Below the pieces are notes generated by a model that had not been told where the DNA came from, made no database searches, and worked only from the letters and a program-made list of their open reading frames with translations. Shown here in pieces: positions 1 through 55,432 of a DNA stretch of 64,000 bases. The stretch lies in the NCBI GenBank assembly GCA_045534635.1, contig JAZSKB010000004.1, positions 617 through 64,616 of the forward strand. Reading direction: 5' to 3'. A program made the position numbers and the translations under genes. Source of the DNA: Bacteroidales bacterium. Lineage in GTDB: Bacteria > Bacteroidota > Bacteroidia > Bacteroidales > WCHB1-69. Within the stretch, counting starts at the first letter, position 1, and each line of letters begins with the position of its first letter.

Positions 1-180
1 GAAATAATAACGTTATACAATTATGACCCTGTTGGCAATGTTACCTATGTATATAGTGAATATCCATGGAAAGGAGCTTTTGATGAATCTTTCTGTTATG
101 ACGAAGCAGACCAACTTACTAATGCTGTTAATGACAAAGATTTTTACAACTTGCAGACACCGAAATCAACCCACAAATAG
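1..180 (+). CDS. RHS/YD-repeat protein, 3' end (partial; 5' end outside window)
   Basis: Frame 1 is open from the window edge to TAG 178-180. The translation EIITLYNYDPVGNVTYVYSE...FCYDEADQLTNAV shows two YD-repeat units. Confidence 0.5.
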   Translation, partial: EIITLYNYDPVGNVTYVYSEYPWKGAFDESFCYDEADQLTNAVNDKDFYNLQTPKSTHK

Positions 181-6545: not shown

Positions 6546-6976
6546 TTTGCAAAAGTATCATTTTTTTCTATAAAATTATAGGTTTTAAATTCAACTTAGA
6601 AAGAATAGGTTCAATAAAAATATCACCAATAACACCGAAAAAAGCAACATAAATATTTCTTGCTGTAAATCAGCATATTGAAGAAATTTAGAAAAGTTTT
6701 AAATTTCACAAAAAATTTTTTTCATTTTTTTATCAAAAACCGACCACTTTGGCACAATATTTGTTGTGTATAAAATGTTGAATGATAACAATATGCTAAA
6801 AAATGAGAGTTTATAAAAAACATACAAAAAACACTTATAACTGACTGATAGACAGTAGTATTAGTGGATGTTTTATAGTGTATTGTTTTGAGGCTCGTTA
6901 TTACAAGCTACCTGCATTAAATTTAAGTTATAACATCAACTTATAAAGTTATAAAAAAAGTGTTATCTTTGTAAAA
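6546..6976 (-). repeat. Dispersed intergenic repeat, copy A (full length, both promoter arms)
   Basis: Hand-aligned to copies B-G. 6546-6628 is identical to the reverse complement of 36458-36540. It contains -7 boxes at 6550-6557 (minus strand, toward rsmG) and 6964-6971 (plus strand, toward the hydrolase). Confidence 0.9.
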
Positions 6977-7000
6977 TCATTTTTATAATTTTATATAGTG

Positions 7001-11102: not shown

Positions 11103-11110
11103 TATCTTTG
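11103..11110 (+). promoter_or_regulatory. -7 promoter box TATCTTTG (lpxH)
   Basis: TAnnTTTG match 17 nt upstream of ATG 11127. Confidence 0.6.
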
Positions 11111-23305: not shown

Positions 23306-23398
23306 CCTCAAAACAATACACTAAAAACAGTCCATAACACTACTGTTTATCAGATAGTTATAATCGATTTTTTTGATATGTTTTTTATAAACTGTCAT
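23306..23398 (+). repeat. Dispersed intergenic repeat, copy D (segment 1 only)
   Basis: CCTCAAAACAATACACTAAAAA...CTACTGTTTATCAGATAG...TTTTTTATAAACTGTCAT aligns to segment 1 of copies A, B, F and G. Confidence 0.85.
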
Positions 23399-23415
23399 AT
23401 ATCGTTATAAAGAAA

Positions 23416-26400
23416 TTATTTTACATTGATACGAATACCTTCGCTATGTGAAGTAAATTCAGGAGCATACATACATTGAATAGTAGTGATACCATTAGAA
23501 AATTGCCCTTTTTGTGTAGCGATAAGAGTATATTCAAAAACATAAGTTCCTTTTGGTAAATATTCAATAAAAAAATTAGTTGCAACATCGCGTGTAGATT
23601 CATAATACATTAAACCTCCTTGATAGCGGTATACAGAAAGAATATTAGTAGGTTCAAAACAAGAGGCTCGCATATCTTTAAGATGAACATATTCCATATC
23701 TCTATCGGTAGAAATAACAATTCTTACTTTTATTTTATCACCAACAGCAATAGTATTATTATTTTTAATTTCAGATAAATGTTCTCCTCTATCGTTAAAA
23801 ATGATTTTATAAAGTTGTTTATTTATTGCTAAAGAAGTTTTTGCAGAAGAAATTTTATCTAAATTTTCAAAATATTGCCAAAAACAACTTCCCCAACTTG
23901 TACCATTATCAATTTGTTGTAAAGAAATATTTCCCATATCGGGTGTTATTTCATCGTTATTCCAAGACATTTTGAAGTATCCTGTTCCACTTTCGATAGA
24001 GGAAATTGTATCACTATAAATAATTTGTTCTCCAATAGTGATTTTAGTTTTGTGCAATTTGCTAAGATTGTTGTTACCACGTAATAGCAAAGCATAACAA
24101 GCAGCGGTTGTTGATTTGGTACTTCCCCAATTTTGAGATTGACGTTGTTTGAGTAACCACAATTGCATTTTTGCAACGCTTTCACTATCTTTGGAAATGG
24201 TTTCAAATGCTTCTATCATTAGGGCTTGACGTTCTATTGGTGCTTCGTACCAATACCAACCTAAACCTTCTTTATGCCACCACATTCCCATTTCATCGGA
24301 ATATTGTGCTTTGGATTTAATGGAAGTGATTATTTTTTCAGCAGTAATTTTATCGCCTGAACGATAAAGACTCAAAGCGATAAGTGTTTGTCCATATAGA
24401 TTTTTTTCTGTCCAATATTTTTGTGCTTGATTTATACAGAAATCAAACATTTTTTTATTTTTTTCTGCTATTGGAAATTGTTCAAAGAAAAAACTTCTTG
24501 CGTAGAGGTATTGTGTAACGTTGTAAGAAAGAAAATTATCGGAAATAGAACGATTTTTTAGCGAATCGTACCATTTTTGCATACTATTATCAATAAATTG
24601 TATTGCTTTTCGAAGAGTATTGGCATTTAGATTTTCGGAAATATTCATTGTTTGAAGATGACCACAACCGCTTACAATATGGCTGGTAATGAAAAAATTG
24701 GAACGATACCCTCCTGAAAACCAAGACCAACCTCCATCGTTTCTTTGTCCTTTTTCTAATGCTTTTTGGGCTTTATTCAATTCGAGATTAATTCTTTTTG
24801 TATCAAATAAATTAGAAATACGTTGTTTATTTTCTTTTTCCGATTGTGCTTCCAAAAGCCAAGGAGAATTTTCAATAGCAATATTTTTCAATTCGCTATT
24901 TTTTTCTAAATTAGACAAAAAAGCATTACTATCTTCTTGTTGCCATTGCATAAAAACAGCTTTAATTTCTGGAGAAGAATTAACAATTGTAGATGCTATT
25001 GTATTGGCATATAGGCGACTAAATATTTGTTCGTAACATTCGTACGGATATTCTATTAGATAAGGAAGCGATTGTAAAGCATACCATAAAGGATTTGCGG
25101 TAAATTCAAAAGTGAATTTGTAATTAGAAAGAGTATTATTACTGTCTGTCAAATGTTTATAGGCTTGTTTAAATTTATCAAAAGTAAAAGTTTTAGTTTG
25201 TCCTTTGTTTACATAAATGGGCATAGTTTCGGTAACTAACATTCGGTTTGATAAAATAGGCAATATTTTTTGTTCTCCGTCGCTATGTATATCGCTAATT
25301 GCCATTGTTTTACAATTAATAGCACCAATTTCATGAGGAATAATGAGTGTAAAACTTACAATATCGCTTTCTCCTTTGGAAAGATTGAAAGTATCTTTGT
25401 TTACTTGATAAATAATATCAAGAGGTTTGTTATCAATGGAATTAGAAATTTGCAATGAAACATGTCCCGCAATTTTTTTTACACTCATATTGACAACTTT
25501 AGCAGTAAAAATTATTGTATCTCCTTCACGTAAGAAACGAGGATAATTAACAACTAACATCAAATCTTTTTGGGTTTGTATAAATTGTTCAAACAAGCCA
25601 TAGTAAAGATTTTGATTATGAGCGATACCATGCATTTTCCATTTAGTAAGAGATTCTGGCATTGTGGCTGAAAATATTATATTGCCATTGCTATCACTTT
25701 GTAAATGAGGATAAAAAAAGGCTGTTTCATTAAAATTAGAACGTAAATTTGGTAGTACTGATTTCGTTATAGATGCTTCTTCTTTAACAGAAACTTCTTC
25801 TTTAACAGATACTATAGAAAGAACATTTTCGTCATCAACCATTCCTATTTTCTTAGCATTTCTTGGTCTAACATTGTTTTTCATTGTTCCCGCACAACAT
25901 ATTGGATATTTAAAACTAATATTAGAAGGTTTATTTATCCATTGGGGAGATAAAATATTTATCAAAGGATTGTGATTTTTTTCAAAAAATCTAGACCTAA
26001 TAGTCTCATGATTAAAATCTTTGTAATCAAAATATGTATAATGAAATCCGTCTATAATAGGAAGAGAAAAATTATAATTGTGTTTGACAAATGCATCCAA
26101 AGAGGCATCGTACATATTGCAAAGCAATTCTGCAACAATAGGTTTACCTTCCGCATTTTTTATTTTGAAATGCCATTGTTCTTTTTCTCCGGGCTGTAAA
26201 TAATTTCTAAATGTAACATATTCAAAATAAATATTTTTATTTGTTTCTTGTACACTTATTTTTTTTGTTTGATTATAAAAATGATTGTGTTGATGAACAA
26301 AAATATTGCAGTGTAAATATCCCAAATGTTCTTTTTTTATTGGAAAATCAAAGTGTATTTGTCCTTTGTTTATCATTTTATGCTCTTGATAGATAATAGA

Positions 26401-29274
26401 ATCGTTGCAAGTAAATTCAAAATGAATAACAACATCTTCCAAATAAGAACCATAAACTATATGTAATGTATCACCAATATAAATGGTTGTTTTATCAACA
26501 TCAAGAAAAATAGGTTCATAACGGGTACAATTGTTAGATTCTGCATCGTTTAATGAAAAAATATGTTGATTGGTAACTTCTTGATTAAAAGTATCTTTTG
26601 CGGTAAGCGTAATACGATAGTACCCTAAATGTTTTTTGTTAAAAATTTTACGTAAATCAAGAAAAGATGTATCATTTGTGAAAAGAGAACCTTCTAATAT
26701 TTTATTTCCTTTCCAATTTTCTGGAAGATGATTATTTTTATAAGAAAGATAAGGGAAGTTTTTGCGATATTCTTTTTCTGTAAAATTCTCTACATCAGGA
26801 ATTGGAAACATATCTCTTGAATGGTAATAAATAGATGGAACTTCCAATCGTTCTATTGAATAATGTACAAGTGTATTTTGATTTTCACCACTTAAATTGG
26901 TAGTTTGCAAAGAAAAAGATTGTTTTGATTGGTGAATATCATTATTTTCTGGAATATCTAAATGAATATATAAACTTTTGCTTCCAACATAAACCGCTGT
27001 TGAACAAGAATGTGTTTCTCCAGAAATATCAGTGACATCTGCAAAAATAATATATTGATAAACAGGGAAATAATTTCTATCTTCTATTGAAGATTCTGCA
27101 ATAAAAGTTAATTCAAATTCACCGTTGTCATTTGTGGTAGTTTCTCCTTGAACTATTTCTTTTGTTGTCATATTGTTCCACCAACGACAATAAGGAAATT
27201 TACTATGCCGAACAATGTGATATGTTACTTTAGCATTATCGATAGCGTAACCAGAGTACGCCGTACATTCTCCTTTAATTGTTATAGATTGGTCTAATTT
27301 AAAGCAAGCTTTAGGTTGATTGATTTTTACTTCAAAATTAGGTCGTTTGTATTCTTCAACAGAAAAATAAGTCCTTTCATAATATCCTTTAGAATTGACA
27401 ATTCCCAAACTAAAAGTGCCTGTATTGCCTGTTGAAGGAAGCGTAAAATTACCAGAAAAAGAACCATATTGATTGGTGGTAACTTTTATAGAATCTATGG
27501 CTTGATAATTTGCATCGTAAAGCATTATTTGATAGTTTGTGTTAGAAAGAACACTATGATTTGAATCAGATTTTACTGCAATACCCTTGAAATACACTTG
27601 CTGACCGGGACGATAAATTTGTCTATCAGTAAAAAAATAAACTTTTTGAAAAGATGAAGTTTTGTCATTATAATTACTATAAAAGTAATCATCAAAAGAA
27701 AATTTTTCATTTTTATAAGAAACATGTATAGTTCCTATTCTACTATATTTCAAGATATTGTTAAAATATGCATATCCATTTTTATCTGTTCTTTTTAATT
27801 GGATAGATTTATTTTTTTGCATTTCAATTTTTATGGTTGCATTTTCTAAAGGATAACCTGTCTGTCTATCAAAAACATAATAAATTAAATCTGCATTTTT
27901 ACTATTATAAACAAAGTCAATGTTATTAACAAGAATTTTTATTATTGCACAAGTACTACCAATTTTCATTGTATCTTGCATTTCAGAAAAAGGACGATTG
28001 GAATACCACATTATATAATGTCCTGATTCCATTGCAGGAAAAATAGCATCAAAAGTTTTGGGACGATAGTCATATTTGTTGTGAGCACAAATTGTAAATG
28101 TTTTTGCAACAGATAATTTTTTGAGAAATTTTATCGGAGAAGTTTTTTTCATTTCATCAAAAGTAGATTCATCTACGGCAAACAATTGAATGTAAATAGA
28201 ATCGCAATTGGTACTAACAAAAGACATTAGCCCTATTTGATTTGGAATATAAGTTTCTGATAATGTTGCAGTTATAGATGATTTTTTTATTTCTTGTATT
28301 TTGTTTTTTGCATTTATCGCAGAATAAGAATTAGGGGCAAACTCAATTGCTTTTTCATACCATTCTATTGCAATTTTATAATCATTGTAATATTCGGGAA
28401 AATTTATAGTATCGTATTTTTCCCCTCTTTTTTGGTAATAATCTCCTAAAACATAACAAATTTGTTCATATCCTTTTTGATTTTGATAGTTATTTTCTAA
28501 ATTATTTAAAGCATTGAAATACAATTCTTTTTTATTTGATAACGTACATTTTGTTTGTAAATAGTTCAATCGTAAAAGTGCGATATATATTTGTAATTCA
28601 GAAGATTGCTCTTGATAAAATGATGTCAATGTTTGTAAAATTTTTAAAGCTTGATAACTAAAAGACAGTGTATCTGATGTATTGATTGATATTTTAGCAA
28701 ATATTTGATTATCAGAAAAAAAACAAGTATCATTTATATCAAAAGGACGAATAGGAATAGGCATTTCGTCTATAGTTTGATTGTAAAATTGTATCGCAAG
28801 ACAAGCCAATGCTTCGTATAAAGAAGAATAGTACATTATAGAAAAACTGTCTAAATGAGTAAATAATTTTTGATATTGTTCATAAGGAATTTGAACAAGA
28901 GAATCCTTGTCTTTTAATGATAGTTCATAGTGCATAACAATTTGTTCTACAATAGTTTGAATATCCCATTCGTGAAGAGATTTTTCCAAAATATTAGTAT
29001 TTTCTATTTTGCTAATAAATAGCATTTTATAAATGTTTTCTTTGTAAAAATTTTCCAAAAACAAAGCCATATAACTATGCCAAAGTGCTTTTTCAGAAAT
29101 ATTTCCTGTATTGATACAATTTTGAATGTAAGAATATGCGGAATCGTAAAAATTATCGTATTTTTTTAGAGAATTAATGTGTTCTTGTTGAGCAAAAATA
29201 TTTTGAGTATTCGATTGAGCAAAAAGACAACTATTGCATACAAATAATATTATGATAAATATAACTTTCTTCAT
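23416..29274 (-). CDS. Alpha-2-macroglobulin family protein with thioester motif
   Basis: About 1950 aa. YPYECYEQ (CxEQ thioester, codons at 25027-25038). I use the start at M12 (ATG 29274) because the track ATG overlaps the -7 box. N-terminal signal peptide. Confidence 0.85.
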   Translation of the reverse strand: MKKVIFIIILFVCNSCLFAQSNTQNIFAQQEHINSLKKYDNFYDSAYSYIQNCINTGNISEKALWHSYMALFLENFYKENIYKMLFISKIENTNILEKSLHEWDIQTIVEQIVMHYELSLKDKDSLVQIPYEQYQKLFTHLDSFSIMYYSSLYEALACLAIQFYNQTIDEMPIPIRPFDINDTCFFSDNQIFAKISINTSDTLSFSYQALKILQTLTSFYQEQSSELQIYIALLRLNYLQTKCTLSNKKELYFNALNNLENNYQNQKGYEQICYVLGDYYQKRGEKYDTINFPEYYNDYKIAIEWYEKAIEFAPNSYSAINAKNKIQEIKKSSITATLSETYIPNQIGLMSFVSTNCDSIYIQLFAVDESTFDEMKKTSPIKFLKKLSVAKTFTICAHNKYDYRPKTFDAIFPAMESGHYIMWYSNRPFSEMQDTMKIGSTCAIIKILVNNIDFVYNSKNADLIYYVFDRQTGYPLENATIKIEMQKNKSIQLKRTDKNGYAYFNNILKYSRIGTIHVSYKNEKFSFDDYFYSNYNDKTSSFQKVYFFTDRQIYRPGQQVYFKGIAVKSDSNHSVLSNTNYQIMLYDANYQAIDSIKVTTNQYGSFSGNFTLPSTGNTGTFSLGIVNSKGYYERTYFSVEEYKRPNFEVKINQPKACFKLDQSITIKGECTAYSGYAIDNAKVTYHIVRHSKFPYCRWWNNMTTKEIVQGETTTNDNGEFELTFIAESSIEDRNYFPVYQYIIFADVTDISGETHSCSTAVYVGSKSLYIHLDIPENNDIHQSKQSFSLQTTNLSGENQNTLVHYSIERLEVPSIYYHSRDMFPIPDVENFTEKEYRKNFPYLSYKNNHLPENWKGNKILEGSLFTNDTSFLDLRKIFNKKHLGYYRITLTAKDTFNQEVTNQHIFSLNDAESNNCTRYEPIFLDVDKTTIYIGDTLHIVYGSYLEDVVIHFEFTCNDSIIYQEHKMINKGQIHFDFPIKKEHLGYLHCNIFVHQHNHFYNQTKKISVQETNKNIYFEYVTFRNYLQPGEKEQWHFKIKNAEGKPIVAELLCNMYDASLDAFVKHNYNFSLPIIDGFHYTYFDYKDFNHETIRSRFFEKNHNPLINILSPQWINKPSNISFKYPICCAGTMKNNVRPRNAKKIGMVDDENVLSIVSVKEEVSVKEEASITKSVLPNLRSNFNETAFFYPHLQSDSNGNIIFSATMPESLTKWKMHGIAHNQNLYYGLFEQFIQTQKDLMLVVNYPRFLREGDTIIFTAKVVNMSVKKIAGHVSLQISNSIDNKPLDIIYQVNKDTFNLSKGESDIVSFTLIIPHEIGAINCKTMAISDIHSDGEQKILPILSNRMLVTETMPIYVNKGQTKTFTFDKFKQAYKHLTDSNNTLSNYKFTFEFTANPLWYALQSLPYLIEYPYECYEQIFSRLYANTIASTIVNSSPEIKAVFMQWQQEDSNAFLSNLEKNSELKNIAIENSPWLLEAQSEKENKQRISNLFDTKRINLELNKAQKALEKGQRNDGGWSWFSGGYRSNFFITSHIVSGCGHLQTMNISENLNANTLRKAIQFIDNSMQKWYDSLKNRSISDNFLSYNVTQYLYARSFFFEQFPIAEKNKKMFDFCINQAQKYWTEKNLYGQTLIALSLYRSGDKITAEKIITSIKSKAQYSDEMGMWWHKEGLGWYWYEAPIERQALMIEAFETISKDSESVAKMQLWLLKQRQSQNWGSTKSTTAACYALLLRGNNNLSKLHKTKITIGEQIIYSDTISSIESGTGYFKMSWNNDEITPDMGNISLQQIDNGTSWGSCFWQYFENLDKISSAKTSLAINKQLYKIIFNDRGEHLSEIKNNNTIAVGDKIKVRIVISTDRDMEYVHLKDMRASCFEPTNILSVYRYQGGLMYYESTRDVATNFFIEYLPKGTYVFEYTLIATQKGQFSNGITTIQCMYAPEFTSHSEGIRINVK

Positions 29275-29295
29275 AAGTATCCTTTTTATTTTTTG

Positions 29296-29303
29296 CAAAA
29301 ATA
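29296..29303 (-). promoter_or_regulatory. -7 promoter box TATTTTTG (A2M)
   Basis: TAnnTTTG match on the minus strand, 22 nt upstream of ATG 29274. Confidence 0.55.
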
Positions 29304-29542
29304 TCATTTTTTACAGAAACCGTAAAATGTTTTGCAAATTTTTTCTTGAAAGCATATCTCCTTTACATGTTTACAACCCACCAAAATCAAAAATATCATA
29401 CTTTTTAGAATAAAATATTACATGGTTTGGTAGTGAATTAGAAATTTATAAATTATATTACGTTTTTTTCGCATATAAATACCTTCAATGCGGGTGGATT
29501 GTATATGAGTAAGATGTGAGCCATGGTTTTTCGTTCATTAAC

Positions 29543-29887
29543 GGGTCTCTGCTGGTAAATGTAGGAGACTTGTTATTACGAGCCTCAAAACAATACACTA
29601 TAAAATATCCATTAATACTACTGTCTATCAGGTAGTTATAAGTATTTTTTGTGTGTTTTTTATAAACTCTCATTTTTTAGCATATTGTTATTATTCAACG
29701 TTTTATACACAACAAATATTGTACCAAAGTGGTCAATTTTTGATAAAAAAATGAAAAAAATTTTTTGTAAAGTTTAAAACTTTCCTGAATTTATTTAATA
29801 TGTTGATTTTCAGTAAGAAAGGTTTGTGTTGTTTTTTCAAGTGTTCATGGTGTGTACTATTAGGTTTCTTTTGATTATAAATTCAAC
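29543..29887 (+). repeat. Dispersed intergenic repeat, copy B (segments 1-3, diverged 4)
   Basis: Aligns with the reverse complement of copy A along its length, and with copy G over about 190 nt (about 11 substitutions plus one 3-nt indel by hand count). Confidence 0.9.
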
Positions 29888-36299: not shown

Positions 36300-36300
36300 T

Positions 36301-36541
36301 TGTTAATCAATGTTTATATATAGCAAGAATCGTGCCAAAGTGGTCGATTTTTGATAAAAATAAAAAAAAATTTTTTGTAAAATTTAAAATTTTCCTAAAC
36401 TTTCACAATATGTTGATTTTCAGCAAGAAAAGTTTGTATTGCTTTTTTCGGTATTACTGGTGATATTTTTATTGAACCTATTCTTTCTAAGTTGAATTTA
36501 AAACCTATAATTTTATAGAAAAAAATGATACTTTTGCAAAG
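36301..36541 (+). repeat. Dispersed intergenic repeat, copy C (segments 2-4 with left promoter arm)
   Basis: 36458-36540 is 83/83 identical to the reverse complement of 6546-6628. It ends in the -7 box TACTTTTG (36529-36536), which faces kdsA. Confidence 0.9.
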
Positions 36542-36576: not shown

Positions 36577-36584
36577 TAAATTTG
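36577..36584 (+). promoter_or_regulatory. -7 promoter box TAAATTTG (kdsA proximal)
   Basis: TAnnTTTG match 45 nt upstream of GTG 36629. It is a second promoter candidate, downstream of the repeat-borne one. Confidence 0.5.
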
Positions 36585-37618: not shown

Positions 37619-37626
37619 TACATTTG
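37619..37626 (+). promoter_or_regulatory. -7 promoter box TACATTTG (lipA)
   Basis: TAnnTTTG match 30 nt upstream of ATG 37656. Confidence 0.55.
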
Positions 37627-46348: not shown

Positions 46349-46461
46349 TATTTTGCAAAGATAACACTTTTTTATAACTTTCTAAGTTGAATTTTTAATC
46401 GCACTCCAAGTAGTCAATTTTTGATAAAAAAATGAAAAAAATTTTTTTTGCAAAGTTTTTG
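46349..46461 (+). repeat. Dispersed intergenic repeat, copy E (right promoter arm plus part of segment 2; segment 1 absent)
   Basis: The reverse complement of 46349-46390 aligns to 6936-6976 with 2 mismatches and 1 indel. 46400-46458 aligns to segment 2. It contains the hflX -7 box (46356-46363, minus strand). Confidence 0.85.
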
Positions 46462-46517: not shown

Positions 46518-46525
46518 TATCTTTG
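46518..46525 (+). promoter_or_regulatory. -7 promoter box TATCTTTG (lpxD)
   Basis: TAnnTTTG match 27 nt upstream of ATG 46552. Confidence 0.6.
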
Positions 46526-48788: not shown

Positions 48789-48881
48789 AAATTAATAAGC
48801 AATTTTGAAATAAAAATTCCTGATATGACTTCAACCTAAAAAAATATTGAACAATAAACAATAAGAATATAAGTAAAAATG

Positions 48882-48972
48882 ATAGTTCAAAAAAATGACA
48901 CAAAAAAATTGCTTGTAACTACCTGATATACAGTAGCATTATAGGCTTTTTATAGTGTATTGTTTTGAGGCT
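48882..48972 (-). repeat. Dispersed intergenic repeat, copy F (segment 1 only)
   Basis: ...CTACCTGATATACAGTAG...TTTTATAGTGTATTGTTTTGAGGCTG aligns to segment 1 of copy A in the same strand sense. Confidence 0.85.
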
Positions 48973-49125
48973 GTTTTTTTTCATGAACTTTTGGATGAAT
49001 ATTTAAATTACTTCGCAAAAGGTAAGATTACAAATTCATCACCAAAAATTGAGAAAGTATATTATCAAAATCAAGCTTTGCAAAACAAAGAACTTCCACC
49101 TCGTAATGGGAATGACTACCAATAA
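48937..49125 (+). pseudogene. Start-less gene remnant running out of repeat F
   Basis: Open frame with no ATG: ...FIVYCFEAVFFHELLDEYLNYFAKGKITNSSPKIEKVYYQNQALQNKELPPRNGNDYQ*. The first ~12 codons are repeat-derived. Confidence 0.3.
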
Positions 49126-49154: not shown

Positions 49155-49622
49155 ATGAAAATAATTATTAAAAACATGTGTGTCTTTATCGTACTATTAT
49201 ATAATATAAATATATCACTATGTCAGAAAAATATGGATTGTTATTTGCATTTCCAAGATAATCCTTCAGATAGATTTTATATTTCAAATTCAACATTTGT
49301 TACATCTATAGATAGTTGTTTTTGTAGTAAAGATACACTATTTGTTATATTGAAATCACTTGTTAAGATTAAGGTATCATGTCAAGAAAGTACCATTCAA
49401 ATTCGCGACTACAAATCAGATAGCATAGAATATTACCATGCATTTAGGAAAAATAAAAGTAAATATAAGTATAGTTTTTCTTTACTGGATTGTTATTCAA
49501 TGAAAAGTATTTCATACATCATAATTAAAAACTATTACTGCATTCGATATTTTAAGCATAAAAGGAGGAATCTCTATATTCAGGTTGCATCCGAAATTTT
49601 TTCAGATACTAAAAAGTTTTAA
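49155..49622 (+). CDS. Hypothetical small secreted protein
   Basis: 155 aa with an N-terminal hydrophobic signal; Cys- and Tyr-rich; extremely AT-rich. I recognise no motif. Confidence 0.45.
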   Translation: MKIIIKNMCVFIVLLYNINISLCQKNMDCYLHFQDNPSDRFYISNSTFVTSIDSCFCSKDTLFVILKSLVKIKVSCQESTIQIRDYKSDSIEYYHAFRKNKSKYKYSFSLLDCYSMKSISYIIIKNYYCIRYFKHKRRNLYIQVASEIFSDTKKF

Positions 49623-49637
49623 AGAAATATTTTTTTG

Positions 49638-49645
49638 TATCTTTG
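49638..49645 (+). promoter_or_regulatory. -7 promoter box TATCTTTG (glycosyltransferase)
   Basis: TAnnTTTG match 25 nt upstream of the TTG start at 49670. Confidence 0.6.
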
Positions 49646-52563: not shown

Positions 52564-52671
52564 TTACCAAGTCCTAAAAAATATTACATTTTTTAGGACT
52601 TGCTGTTTTAAAAATATCAAACAAAAAACTATATTGGTAAAATTACCCACAACATCATAATTGTATAACAT
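52564..52671 (-). pseudogene. RHS/YD-repeat gene fragment
   Basis: The reverse complement of 52636-52681 matches window positions 1-45 at 38/45 nt. The fragment translates (EII)MLYNYDVVGNFTNI... and then runs into the hairpin. Confidence 0.6.
52569..52601. terminator. 14-bp perfect hairpin (bidirectional terminator candidate)
   Basis: AAGTCCTAAAAAAT-ATTAC-ATTTTTTAGGACTT, 40 nt after the M49-like gene stop. Confidence 0.65.
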
Positions 52672-52708
52672 TATTATTTCGTTGTTAATTCTCCTAATTT
52701 CTATTCTG

Positions 52709-52716
52709 CAAAGATA
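52709..52716 (-). promoter_or_regulatory. Orphan -7 promoter box TATCTTTG facing the YD fragment
   Basis: The minus strand reads AAAAAAAGTGTTATCTTTG, the same extended sequence as the hflX and hydrolase promoters. No intact minus-strand gene lies downstream. Confidence 0.5.
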
Positions 52717-52728
52717 ACACTTTTTTTG

Positions 52729-52736
52729 TACTTTTG
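52729..52736 (+). promoter_or_regulatory. -7 promoter box TACTTTTG (island operon)
   Basis: TAnnTTTG match 58 nt upstream of ATG 52794, back-to-back with the orphan box. Confidence 0.55.
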
Positions 52737-52793
52737 CATTTGGATTTCAAAATGAAATCACTTATAGAGTCTAACATTTAAAAATTTGTAATT

Positions 52794-53850: not shown

Positions 53851-54828
53851 ATGAGAATTACATTCGGATTACTAATTGGAATTATTGTCTGTTTAATATC
53901 CACAAAAGCAGCAACTTGTAACGAATTTTATAAAAATAACAACTTAATAAATAAACCTATGTTTGAAATGAAAGACAAGAAACCGAGCAACGAGCAAACC
54001 GTCTATATGTCGGAACTGCTAATGGACAGATACCCCGAAACTTGCAAGAACCTGATTGCCATTCTCGAAAAGCATAATGTGAAATACTCGTTTATTAAAG
54101 GCACTAAAGATATTTGGTGCCGCGACTATATGCCAGTCCAAACCGAATCGGGAAAGTTTATCCAGTTCAGATACGACCCAAGTTATTTGAAAGGCAAAAA
54201 GGAATGGGAAGATTCGCGTTCCGATGTGAAAGAAGTTTGCCGGTTGAATAATATCAACGCTACATTTTCGGACATAAACCTCGATGGTGGAAATATTCTT
54301 ATCTGTGATGGACGAGCAATATTGTCGGACAGGATTTTCTCCGAAAATCCAAATTATGAAAAGGATTCTTTGACAAACGAGTTATCGAAACTGCTGGAAT
54401 GTAAAGAAATTATCATAATTCTTGCACTAAAATCACAAAATGAAGATTTTACAGGACACGCAGATGGAATGGTGAGATTTGTGAACAGGAACACCATTAT
54501 AGGCAACGAAAGATGCCCCAACGAGTACAAATATATGAAAGAAGGATTGCAAAAGGTTATTAATGATTACAATCTTGAGTATATCGACATTCCATTTTTT
54601 GAAGACAAAGACCGCAAACATCCTGACAGTGCAGTCGGAATATATGTGAACTATCTGGAGGTTAATGACTTGATTGTGATGCCGATATTTAATCGGGACG
54701 AGGACAATCAGGCTCTTGAAATCATAAAAAAGACATTTCCAGACAGGAAAATCGAAACAATCGACTACAGCGATGTCGCCAAGGAAGGCGGTTTGCTAAA
54801 TTGTACGACATGGGTGATTCATAACTAA
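53851..54828 (+). CDS. Agmatine/peptidyl-arginine deiminase-family (guanidino-modifying enzyme) protein with N-terminal signal sequence
   Basis: DIWCRDYMP, LDGGNI, TGHADGMVRF and C-terminal GGLLNCTTW (catalytic Cys codon 54802-54804) follow the PAD_porph/AguA motif order. Alternative starts lie at 53959 and 53968. Confidence 0.7.
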   Translation: MRITFGLLIGIIVCLISTKAATCNEFYKNNNLINKPMFEMKDKKPSNEQTVYMSELLMDRYPETCKNLIAILEKHNVKYSFIKGTKDIWCRDYMPVQTESGKFIQFRYDPSYLKGKKEWEDSRSDVKEVCRLNNINATFSDINLDGGNILICDGRAILSDRIFSENPNYEKDSLTNELSKLLECKEIIIILALKSQNEDFTGHADGMVRFVNRNTIIGNERCPNEYKYMKEGLQKVINDYNLEYIDIPFFEDKDRKHPDSAVGIYVNYLEVNDLIVMPIFNRDEDNQALEIIKKTFPDRKIETIDYSDVAKEGGLLNCTTWVIHN

Positions 54829-54853
54829 ATGATTAATTTTTAAAACTATTAAT

Positions 54854-55093
54854 ATGAAAAGAGTTGTTTTATTTTTTGTCTGCGTAACTTTGTTATCGTC
54901 TTGCCGCCAAAGCAAATCGGATATCGTGAAAGATTATATAGATGACATAAATAGTTATGACTCTAAAAAATTGAATCAGTTACTAACTGATAATTTTATG
55001 TATTATGGCAAAGATACTTTAAACAAAACTATCTATATGACAATTATGGATTATGAAAAAAATATTGGTCAAAAAGCGAGTCTCTACTTGTAA
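54854..55093 (+). CDS. Lipoprotein, truncated NTF2/SnoaL-like domain
   Basis: Lipobox LLSSC. At 79 aa it is too short for a full NTF2-like fold. The last 5 codons and the stop lie inside repeat copy G. Confidence 0.45.
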   Translation: MKRVVLFFVCVTLLSSCRQSKSDIVKDYIDDINSYDSKKLNQLLTDNFMYYGKDTLNKTIYMTIMDYEKNIGQKASLYL

Positions 55094-55299
55094 AAACCAG
55101 TGCTTTATAATAACGAGCCTCAAAACAACACACTATAAAATAGCTATTAAAACTACTGTCTATCAGGAAGTTATAAGCAATTTTTTTGGTGTGTTTTTTA
55201 TAAACTCTCATTTTTTAGCATATTGTTGTTATTCAACATTTTATACACAACAAATATTGTTCCAAAGTGGTCAATTTTTGATAAAAAAGTGAAAAAAAT
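55078..55299 (+). repeat. Dispersed intergenic repeat, copy G (segments 1-2)
   Basis: Aligns to copy B 29543-29760. Its start overlaps the 3' end of the preceding ORF. Confidence 0.9.
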
Positions 55300-55424
55300 A
55301 GAATTTTTAACTCTACTTCAAGAAAACCAATCTATTAAAAAAGAAGAAAAAGAAAATATTTTTTTTAACTATAATTGTTAACAACATTTTTTGTTTTTTT
55401 AGCGATGATTAATGATTTTTTTTC

Positions 55425-55432
55425 TATTTTTG
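55425..55432 (+). promoter_or_regulatory. -7 promoter box TATTTTTG (prs)
   Basis: TAnnTTTG match 25 nt upstream of ATG 55457. Confidence 0.55.

What the first reader, a model, noticed from the sequence alone, without database searches (positions are those of the whole stretch)
6546..6976. Seven-copy modular repeat family confined to intergenic gaps
Hand alignment finds the same sequence in seven gaps. They are A 6546-6976 (-), D 23306-23398 (+), B 29543-29887 (+), C 36301-36541 (+), E 46349-46461 (+), F 48882-48972 (-) and G 55078-55299 (+). Here + means GAGCCTCAAAACAATACACTATAAAA reads on the top strand. The copies are mosaics. A ~95-nt segment 1 occurs in A, B, D, F and G. A segment 2 containing CCAAAGTGGTCAATTTTTGATAAAAAAATGAAAAAAATTTTTTG occurs in A, B, C, E and G. 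Segments 3-4 occur in A, B and C. B versus G shows about 11 substitutions plus one 3-nt indel over ~190 nt by my count. I see no transposase, integrase, clean terminal inverted repeats or target-site duplications, and no ORF is conserved in all copies. Seven copies in 64 kb of otherwise housekeeping DNA implies a genome-wide family. It could be a non-autonomous element, a structured RNA or a regulatory cassette. I cannot place it in any named family from memory.
Basis: seen in the sequence. Interest (0 to 1): 0.75.

Follow-up and report, generated by a model that had tools for sequence, protein, structure and literature searches.

The report
Relics of compact Rhs toxin genes
The seven repeats are real, but they are decayed front ends (upstream leader, a 26-codon head and the conserved Rhs "core-end") of a scattered family of small Rhs-type toxin genes, not a new mobile element or RNA.

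Summary
All seven copies exist at or near the stated coordinates, and none is expected by chance. The window comes from an uncultured rumen Bacteroidales lineage with about 30% GC.

On the opposite strand it is an ORF beginning MRVYKKHT...IVYCFEARYY.... From residue 27 onward this ORF is the C-terminal end of the Rhs repeat-associated core domain (TIGR03696 on a sister copy; hhalign 99.5%; 2,463 library hits, every Rhs hit among the 150 listed starting at about residue 27).

Intact relatives of 282 and 288 aa carry the same head and core-end followed by toxin domains, one of them CHAP. The same CHAP toxin also occurs behind a different head in another assembly, which shows toxin-tip swapping at the core-end.

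In the window every copy has lost its toxin:
- A, D and F carry stops or frameshifts.
- B and G are short stubs.
- C and E keep only the upstream leader.
- F keeps a toxin C-terminal tail, followed by a possible immunity gene.

I found no Rfam hit, no covariation, no terminal inverted repeats beyond the genome's ordinary promoter consensus, and no empty sites.

Verdict: a lineage-specific member of a known kind (orphan Rhs polymorphic-toxin cassettes), mostly pseudogenised. Modest interest.

The parts
6546..6976 (+). Copy A, the most complete. Read on the + strand (Rhs sense) it runs: outward promoter box for rsmG (6550-6557, on the - strand); non-coding leader (segments 4-3-2, about 6558-6802); head ORF from ATG 6803 with an in-frame stop at codon 14; Rhs core-end homology about 6878-6913 (FEARYYKLPA); then a 3' piece with an outward promoter box at 6964-6971 for the esterase gene at 6998.
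29450..29887 (-). Copy B. Leader 29674-29887. Intact 62-aa ORF 29673..29488 (identical to P0001), MRVYKKHTKNTYNYLIDSSINGYFIVYCFEARNNKSPTFTSRDPLMNEKPWLTSYSYTIHPH. Rhs core-end homology 29598..29503, continuing after a frameshift to about 29450. No toxin domain follows.
36300..36541 (-). Copy C. Leader only (segments 2-4). It starts immediately after the stop codon of the TPR gene. Its last 54 nt, including promoter box 36529-36536(+) facing kdsA, are identical to copy A.
23306..23427 (-). Copy D. Head only (MTVYKKHIKKIDYNYLINSS...), frameshifted, ending two codons into the Rhs homology (..CFE). It starts right after the alpha-2-macroglobulin stop codon.
46349..46461 (-). Copy E. Segment-2 core (46408-46458) fused directly to the 3' promoter piece (46350-46398) that faces hflX. 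The head and stub are deleted. A sister contig, L091, keeps the head next to the same segment-2 and segment-3 variant.
48857..49125 (+). Copy F. Frameshifted head (48857-48972) fused in frame after ..CFEA to a 50-codon tail (48973-49122 plus stop). The tail is homologous to the last 54 residues of the toxin domain of a 592-aa Rhs protein, P0157 (50% identity, E 6e-11).
55065..55299 (-). Copy G. Part of segment 2 plus an open 55-aa head ORF (55211..55047) with about 15 codons of Rhs core-end (FEARYYKALVFTSRDSL). Its far end overlaps the last codons of a 79-aa lipoprotein ORF (54854-55093, + strand).
49155..49622 (+). 155-aa ORF with no Pfam match, directly downstream of the toxin tail of copy F. 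Candidate cognate immunity gene, inferred from position only.
52567..52760 (-). Relic of a second head type. Promoter box at 52709-52716, then (M->I)EIRRINN..., homologous to the MEIRRINN heads of intact 259-296-aa toxins (P0016-P0018) and of P0004. Its promoter piece resembles the 3' promoter piece of copies A and E.
1..177 (+). Truncated ORF fragment (EIITLYNYDPVGNVTYV...) homologous to the N-terminal regions of Rhs-core proteins P0157, P0140, P0090 and P0069 (45-59% identity). Another Rhs gene relic.

Best explanation
**What it is**
The repeat is the constant 5' region of a dispersed family of compact Rhs-type polymorphic-toxin ('orphan' or mini-Rhs) genes. In that orientation one unit contains:
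- about 250-300 nt of conserved AT-rich upstream leader (segments 4-3-2);
- a start codon and a family-specific 26-residue head (MRVYKKHT...);
- the last roughly 50 codons of the Rhs repeat-associated core (..FEARYY..SRDPL..PW.TPYHYCSNNP..DPxG).

In intact genes a variable toxin domain of about 200 aa follows, and presumably an immunity gene.

**How it works**
The core-end is the homology handle at which toxin tips are exchanged between Rhs genes by recombination (C-terminal displacement).

**State in this window**
Every copy is a relic that has lost its toxin. Deletions removed different amounts, which produces the 'mosaic of modules':
- leader only (C, E);
- head only (D);
- head plus short stub (A, G);
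- head plus long decayed stub (B);
- head fused to a toxin tail (F).

**Shown versus inferred**
- Shown: the homology to the Rhs core-end, the existence of intact head-plus-toxin relatives, tip swapping between head types, and the pseudogene state of the window copies.
- Inferred: that segments 2-4 are the promoter and leader of the toxin gene; that the retained pieces now serve mainly as spacer and as promoters for neighbouring genes; and that the copies act as recombination substrates.
For: 1. **ORF on the opposite strand.** Translation of the opposite strand of segment 1 gives the same ORF in all five copies. It is open in B and G and broken in A, D and F.
2. **Rhs core-end homology.**
   - Sister copy P0003 (locus L089) passes TIGR03696 Rhs_assc_core at 40 bits against a cut-off of 32.5.
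   - hhalign of the repeat ORFs against bona fide Rhs core-ends gives 99.5% probability, E 4e-23, aligned from FIVYCFEAR onward.
   - Rhs proteins hit B, G and A by tblastn.
   - phmmer against 1.84 billion representatives gives 2,463 hits. Among the 150 listed, every Rhs hit starts at about query residue 27, and only the family's own members (P0014, P0015, P0059, P0008) cover residues 1-26.
3. **Intact relatives.** P0014 (282 aa) and P0015 (288 aa) carry the same head and core-end plus a C-terminal domain. The domain in P0015 is CHAP. Both are recorded on a contig of 240,775 bp, possibly the same one.
4. **Tip swapping.** P0160 has the same CHAP toxin, and identical sequence from FEARYY onward, behind a different head and a longer Rhs core. 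P0161 and P0016 show the same pattern. MEIRRINN-head proteins carry other toxin domains, for example Toxin-JAB1.
5. **Toxin remnant in F.** F's tail matches the toxin C-terminus of Rhs protein P0157.
6. **Deletion series.** The Rhs part retained after 'FE' is 0 codons in D, 1 in F, about 10 in A, about 15 in G, about 50 in B, and complete in L089.
7. **Classical orphan in a relative.** L107 has an immunity-like ORF, a promoter, a short head, the core-end and then toxin-like sequence.
8. **Literature.** Orphan Rhs fragments with core homology, and C-terminal displacement, are described in PMC5727410.
Against: - No window copy retains an intact toxin domain or an identifiable immunity gene.
- Individually, the B, G and A-type ORFs (P0001, the G ORF and P0008, the A-type ORF from contig L106) give no NCBIfam hit.
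- The copies are single and scattered between housekeeping genes, not arrayed downstream of a full-length rhs gene.
- I could not see the DNA upstream of the intact genes P0014 and P0015. That the leader (segments 2-4) belongs to intact genes therefore rests on L089 and the window copies only.
- How the unit reached so many loci is unexplained.
- The recurrence of the same 3' promoter piece in front of different genes (esterase, hflX, and possibly a 4Fe-4S gene in L106) is not predicted by simple decay.
- Residues 1-26 of the head have no detectable Rhs homology.
Confidence: 0.75

Rival explanations
1. A non-autonomous mobile element (MITE-like) that carries outward-facing promoters at both ends and once captured, or inserted into, an Rhs core-end. 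It would spread by transposition using a transposase encoded elsewhere in the genome.
For: - Many copies lie in intergenic gaps, and assemblies break at them.
- Copy A folds with long-range pairing of its two ends, z -2.4 and -3.7.
- A and C share an identical 54-nt end. A, E and L106 share the other end in front of different genes.
- The A-type junction (..KLPALNLSY) is seen in three contigs (A, L091, L106).
- G overlaps the end of a lipoprotein ORF, and an open frame in the same phase follows the element.
Against: - The end-to-end similarity scores 20-21. This is no higher than between unrelated promoters of this genome, which score 15-23.
- No target-site duplications are visible.
- No transposase is present in the window.
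- Internal and outer boundaries vary from copy to copy.
- Every copy that has segment 1 also has the first Rhs codons, so no 'pure' element end exists.
- The G and B junctions are conserved in strains up to about 11% diverged, and no empty site was found.
- L106 is a 1.9x-coverage contig with a chimeric-looking tail.
Confidence: 0.12
2. A family of structured small RNAs or cis-regulatory RNA leaders transcribed from the first reader's strand, using the promoter-like TTTG-N18-TTTTTTG in segment 2 and the hairpin plus T-run in segment 3.
For: - Segment 2 has a loose match to the Bacteroidetes -33/-7 promoter layout.
- Segment 3 has a 5-bp stem followed by a T-run. In B the two arm changes keep pairing as G-U (sequence reading).
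Against: - No Rfam match at gathering or at E<=10.
- Folding z-scores for B are -1.25 and -0.38.
- RNAalifold gives -7.8 kcal/mol with a covariation term of 0.
- The terminator scan finds nothing.
- Between-strain divergence in the leader is 1-5% against about 1% in flanking coding DNA (small counts).
Confidence: 0.05
3. The relics have been co-opted. The retained ends are kept by selection as portable promoter and spacer modules that now drive rsmG, kdsA, hflX, the esterase gene and others. This does not exclude the best explanation.
For: - TAnnTTTG boxes at the copy ends lie 19-27 nt from the rsmG and esterase starts, the usual distance in this window.
- The 54 nt at the rsmG and kdsA ends are 100% identical, while the rest of A versus C differs by about 13%.
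- Copies fill the gaps exactly up to neighbouring stop codons.
Against: - kdsA has a second, closer box of its own at 36577-36584.
- The identity could reflect recent gene conversion rather than selection.
- There are no expression data.
Confidence: 0.2

Closest known systems
Orphan Rhs toxin (rhs-CT) fragments and C-terminal displacement in Rhs/YD polymorphic-toxin loci (E. coli Rhs elements, Salmonella, Serratia, Snodgrassella alvi; PMC5727410, citing Jackson 2009 and Koskiniemi 2014)
   Same: - A short piece of the conserved core end (..ARYY..DPxG) precedes variable toxin domains.
- The same toxin is found behind different N-terminal contexts (P0015 versus P0160).
- Pseudogenised remnants accumulate.
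- The repeated core DNA can act as a recombination substrate.
   Different: - The copies here are single and scattered between housekeeping genes, not arrayed behind a full-length rhs gene.
- They share a family-specific 26-aa head with its own start codon and about 300 nt of conserved upstream leader.
- All copies in this window have lost the toxin.
Short 'RHS repeat-associated core domain-containing proteins' (about 250-500 aa) that are widely annotated in Bacteroidota
   Same: A compact layout of little or no YD-repeat shell, then the core-end, then a toxin domain. Most of the 150 listed hits to P0003 are 240-500 aa, with the core-end 20-300 residues from the start.
   Different: Among the 150 best hits, the MRVYKK head was seen only in this lineage's proteins (P0001-3, P0008, P0014, P0015, and distantly P0059).
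Promoter-bearing intergenic repeats (Neisseria Correia elements; mosaic BOX and BIME repeats; outward promoters of Bacteroides IS elements). Compared from my own knowledge.
   Same: Multi-copy, intergenic, apparently modular, with outward promoter boxes at the ends.
   Different: - No terminal inverted repeats beyond the promoter consensus.
- No palindromic units and no target-site duplication.
- The core of the repeat is a protein-gene fragment.

Membership tests
Rhs/YD polymorphic-toxin orphan cassette | Sequence homologous to the C-terminal end of the Rhs repeat-associated core domain (TIGR03696), up to the DPxG motif | tested here: met
   - P0003 (sister copy L089) scores 40 bits against a cut-off of 32.5.
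- hhalign gives 99.5% probability.
- tblastn of Rhs proteins hits B, G and A.
- 2,463 hits; every Rhs hit among the 150 listed starts at about residue 27.
- The B, G and A-type ORFs, tested alone, give no HMM hit.
Rhs/YD polymorphic-toxin orphan cassette | A variable C-terminal toxin domain follows the core-end | tested here: met
   Met for intact relatives: P0014; P0015, which carries CHAP at E 1e-7. Not met for any copy in the window. Only F keeps a 50-codon toxin tail.
Rhs/YD polymorphic-toxin orphan cassette | Cognate immunity gene immediately downstream | tested here: inconclusive
   A 155-aa ORF with no Pfam match follows F (49155-49622). No context was available for P0014 or P0015 because contig look-ups were exhausted.
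Rhs/YD polymorphic-toxin orphan cassette | Lies in an array downstream of a full-length rhs gene | tested here: not met
   The copies sit at seven separate gaps. There is no full-length rhs gene in the 64 kb, only relic fragments at 1-177 and 52567-52760.
Rhs/YD polymorphic-toxin orphan cassette | Exchange of toxin tips by recombination in the core-end | tested here: met
   P0015 and P0160, and likewise P0016 and P0161, share the same toxin and core-end behind different N-termini.
MITE / non-autonomous transposon | Terminal inverted repeats | tested here: not met
   End-to-end similarity scores 20-21, within the 15-23 range seen for unrelated promoters of this genome.
MITE / non-autonomous transposon | Target-site duplications and empty sites in related strains | tested here: inconclusive
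   - No duplication is visible at the A, C, E or G junctions.
- The G and B junctions are conserved in other strains.
- The nearest GTDB relatives share no synteny, so no empty site could be examined.
Rfam structured RNA | Match to a covariance model, or covariation-supported structure | tested here: not met

The most novel reading that the evidence does not exclude
The whole unit (leader, head, core-end, toxin and immunity, bounded by outward promoters) could be a self-contained toxin cassette that moves or is copied between chromosomal sites. Its toxin-less relics would then have been domesticated as promoter and spacer modules for essential genes, and would act as breakpoints for strain-level genome rearrangement in an AT-rich, heavily rearranged rumen Bacteroidales lineage.
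Probability: 0.15. Interest if true: 0.55.

Novelty: new member of a known kind. Interest (0 to 1): 0.3.

Why it matters
- It turns an apparently unclassifiable intergenic repeat into something explicable: debris from Rhs toxin-cassette turnover.
- The density is high. Seven head or leader relics plus two other Rhs relics lie in 64 kb of an AT-rich, uncultured rumen Bacteroidales genome.
- For genome annotation, reading both strands and chaining through less-decayed sister copies was what revealed the origin.
- For biology, the lineage once carried a large arsenal of compact Rhs toxins with two head types and has been losing it.
- The leftover repeats fragment short-read assemblies and coincide with strain-level rearrangement breakpoints.
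- No new mechanism is established.

Tried and rejected
- **Pattern scans.** Exact-pattern scans for segment 1 found nothing in GTDB genomes, IMG/VR or JGI metagenomes. A segment-2 pattern in JGI metagenomes gave nine hits that are chance matches of the pattern alone.
- **Related genomes.** None of 80 related Bacteroidales loci carries the repeat, and they share no synteny with the window.
- **RNA.** Rfam at gathering and at E<=10 gave only tRNAs and noise. RNA folding and RNAalifold gave no support.
- **Other collections.** blastn against plasmids and phages found nothing.
- **Promoter and terminator scans.** The sigma-70 and terminator scans were at or below the shuffle expectation.
- **Terminal inverted repeats.** Rejected as promoter consensus.
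- **Coding potential of segments 2-4.** No ORF is conserved.
- **Empty site for G.** A search for an intact homologue of the 79-aa lipoprotein found only 79-aa forms.
- **YD-repeat fragments.** The putative fragments at 1-177 and 52.7 kb gave no Pfam or NCBIfam hit. Their Rhs origin rests on tblastn to Rhs proteins.
- **Selection in the leader.** Between-strain divergence counts were too small to show selection.
- **Failed runs.** One Python folding script timed out. One Pfam call failed on wrong coordinates.

Full report
**1.

Dinucleotide shuffles give 0.
- blastn with copy A or B as query recovers all seven copies, E from 1e-92 down to 1e-9. The repeat finder and MAFFT give the same picture.
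- Corrections to the stated coordinates:
  - D reaches 23427.
  - F reaches 48857.
  - Segment 4 is in A and C only.
  - E is two short pieces fused together.

**2. Context**

- The window is about 30% GC.
- HflX is 84% identical to rumen Bacteroidales MAGs such as UBA1205 and RGIG8187. These have 37-42% GC, carry no copy of the repeat and share no gene order around hflX.
- Neighbours of the copies include housekeeping genes: rsmG, kdsA, hflX, lpxD and an aminotransferase.
- Other neighbours are accessory genes: an LRR protein, a 1,963-aa alpha-2-macroglobulin and TPR proteins.
- Public short-read contigs carrying rsmG all end 32-53 nt upstream of it, at or just inside copy A. This is expected for a multi-copy sequence.

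**3. The key result: segment 1 is a gene fragment on the other strand**

  - It is open in B (62 aa) and G (55 aa).
  - It has a stop in A and frameshifts in D and F.
- B's ORF exists as a called protein, P0001. Sister ORFs come from other assemblies (P0002, P0003, P0008, P0010).
- P0003, from contig L089, is a copy at a locus not present in this window. It passes NCBIfam TIGR03696 (Rhs repeat-associated core domain) at 40 bits against a cut-off of 32.5, matching residues 27-71.
- A profile of the repeat ORFs aligns to a profile of bona fide Rhs core-ends at 99.5% probability, E 4e-23, from FIVYCFEAR onward. Two of those Rhs proteins, P0004 and P0005, score 59 and 65 bits on TIGR03696.
- Those Rhs proteins hit B at 29598..29503 (E 5e-12 to 3e-9), G at 55124..55065 and A at 6878..6913.
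- An exhaustive phmmer search with P0003 gives 2,463 hits at E<=1e-3.
  - Among the 150 listed, every Rhs hit begins at about query residue 27.
  - Only the family's own members cover residues 1-26: P0014, P0015, P0059 and P0008.

**4. Intact relatives and tip swapping**

- P0014 (282 aa) and P0015 (288 aa) have the head, the core-end up to DPTG/DPSG, and then about 210 further residues.
  - The C-terminal domain in P0015 is CHAP.
  - Each is recorded on a 240,775-bp ENA contig, possibly the same one.
- P0160 carries the same CHAP toxin, and identical sequence from FEARYY onward, but behind a different head (MKIRRIN...) and a longer piece of Rhs core. P0161 and P0016 show the same relationship.
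- This is the signature of C-terminal displacement, in which toxin tips are exchanged by recombination in the conserved core-end. It is described for Rhs loci in PMC5727410.
- A second head type, MEIRRINN, is attached to other toxins. P0017 carries Toxin-JAB1 at E 3e-17.
- A 34%-GC relative, L107, shows a classical orphan layout: an immunity-like ORF, a promoter, a short head, the core-end, then toxin-like sequence.

**5. What the window copies are**

They are toxin-less relics forming a deletion series.

| Copy | What remains after the 'FE' of FEAR |
|---|---|
| D | 0 Rhs codons |
| F | 1 codon, then in frame a 50-codon tail |
| A | about 10 codons |
| G | about 15 codons |
| B | about 50 codons, with a frameshift |
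| L089 (sister copy) | the complete core-end |
| C, E | no head at all, only the upstream leader |

- F's tail is 50% identical to the last 54 residues of the toxin of Rhs protein P0157, E 6e-11. A 155-aa ORF with no family match follows it, in the position of an immunity gene.
- The same window holds two more Rhs relics:
  - A fragment at 1-177 is homologous to the N-terminal regions of P0157 and other Rhs-core proteins.
  - At 52567-52760 there is a MEIRRINN-type head with its start codon mutated to ATA.

**6. The non-coding part (segments 2-4)**

- It has no conserved ORF and no Rfam match, even at E<=10.
- It shows no significant folding (z -1.25 and -0.38 for B) and no covariation.
- It lies upstream of the head in A, B, G, L087-L089, L091 and L106.
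- My inference is that it is the promoter and leader of the toxin gene. This is not shown.

**7. The ends of the unit**

- Copy A's two ends pair in silico, z -2.4 and -3.7.
- Both ends are instances of this genome's ordinary promoter, roughly AAAAAAA-N-TG-N-TAnCTTTGCAAA. The same motif sits 15-30 nt upstream of many genes and both tRNAs.
- The similarity between A's two ends scores 20-21, within the 15-23 range for unrelated promoters. There are therefore no real terminal inverted repeats.
- The 54 nt at the rsmG end of A and the kdsA end of C are identical, while the rest of A versus C differs by about 13%.
- The opposite end recurs in front of the esterase gene (A), hflX (E) and a 4Fe-4S gene (L106, a low-coverage contig).
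- This could mean that the promoters are carried by the unit, that there was recent gene conversion, or that the pieces have been co-opted. I cannot separate these.

**8. Age and stability**

- The G junction is identical in a strain whose flanking genes are about 11% diverged (L095). B is conserved in three strains. The copies are therefore old and fixed, and no empty site was found.
- Contig L087 differs from the window by a rearrangement whose breakpoint lies inside segment 2 of copy B. This is within about 6 nt of where copy G ends. L086 has a breakpoint at the alpha-2-macroglobulin promoter.
- This fits repeats acting as recombination substrates, but it rests on short metagenomic contigs.

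**9. Verdict**

- The repeat is real but is not a new kind of element or RNA. It is the constant front end of a lineage-specific family of compact Rhs polymorphic-toxin genes, present here only as pseudogenised remnants.
- What remains unexplained is how single units came to lie in so many separate gaps, and whether their promoter-bearing ends are now functional.

Noticed in passing
window 1-177 (+): The window opens inside a truncated ORF (EIITLYNYDPVGNVTYVYSEYPWKGAFDESFCYDEADQL...). It is 45-59% identical to N-terminal regions of Rhs-core proteins P0157, P0140, P0090 and P0069. It has no Pfam or NCBIfam hit on its own.
   Followed up: partly
window 52567-52760 (-): Relic of a second mini-Rhs head type: a promoter, then (ATA)EIRRINN... 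and a YD-like motif. The head is homologous to the MEIRRINN heads of P0004 and P0016-18. The first 51 nt of the window are an 82% inverted match to 52630-52680.
   Followed up: partly
window 48973-49125 and 49155-49622 (+): A toxin C-terminal tail is fused in frame to the head of copy F. It is followed by a 155-aa ORF with no family match, a candidate orphan immunity gene.
   Followed up: partly
whole window, e.g. 11103-11110, 37619-37626, 46518-46525, 49638-49645, 55425-55432: There is a strong shared promoter consensus, roughly AAAAAAA-N-TG-N-TAnCTTTGCAAA. It lies 15-30 nt upstream of many start codons and of both tRNA genes (12648, 39359). It mimics inverted repeats wherever genes diverge.
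   Followed up: partly
L087:3560-3700 and L086:1280-1350: Strain-level rearrangements. In L087, copy B is cut inside segment 2 and joined to a strong hairpin terminator and an ABC-transporter gene. In L086 the alpha-2-macroglobulin gene is replaced by a YitT-family gene, with the junction at the promoter box.
   Followed up: partly
L090:509-835: In a 31%-GC contig, a MEIRRINN-head mini-Rhs ORF lies directly upstream of a MobV-type relaxase fragment (Pfam Mob_Pre, E 5e-18). This hints that such cassettes can sit on mobilisable DNA.
   Followed up: no
L091:260-800: An E-type copy that still has its head is followed by two direct repeats (AAACGAAATGTACA.TAAG) and a Peptidase_S24 (repressor-like) gene. 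This may be the edge of an integrated element.
   Followed up: no
window 54854-55093 and 55280-55381 (+): A 79-aa lipoprotein ORF ends inside copy G. A 33-codon open frame in the same phase follows the copy, so G may interrupt an older, longer gene. All database homologues are also 79 aa.
   Followed up: partly
window 29272-29307 (-): The first ATG of the 1,963-aa alpha-2-macroglobulin ORF lies inside its own promoter box. The real start is probably the ATGAAGAAAG about 30 nt downstream.
   Followed up: no
L095 versus window 53965-55134: Between these strains the divergence is about 11% in the upstream gene and in the signal-peptide part of the lipoprotein. It is 0% across the start of copy G. 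This suggests recombination between strains or conversion at the repeat.
   Followed up: no
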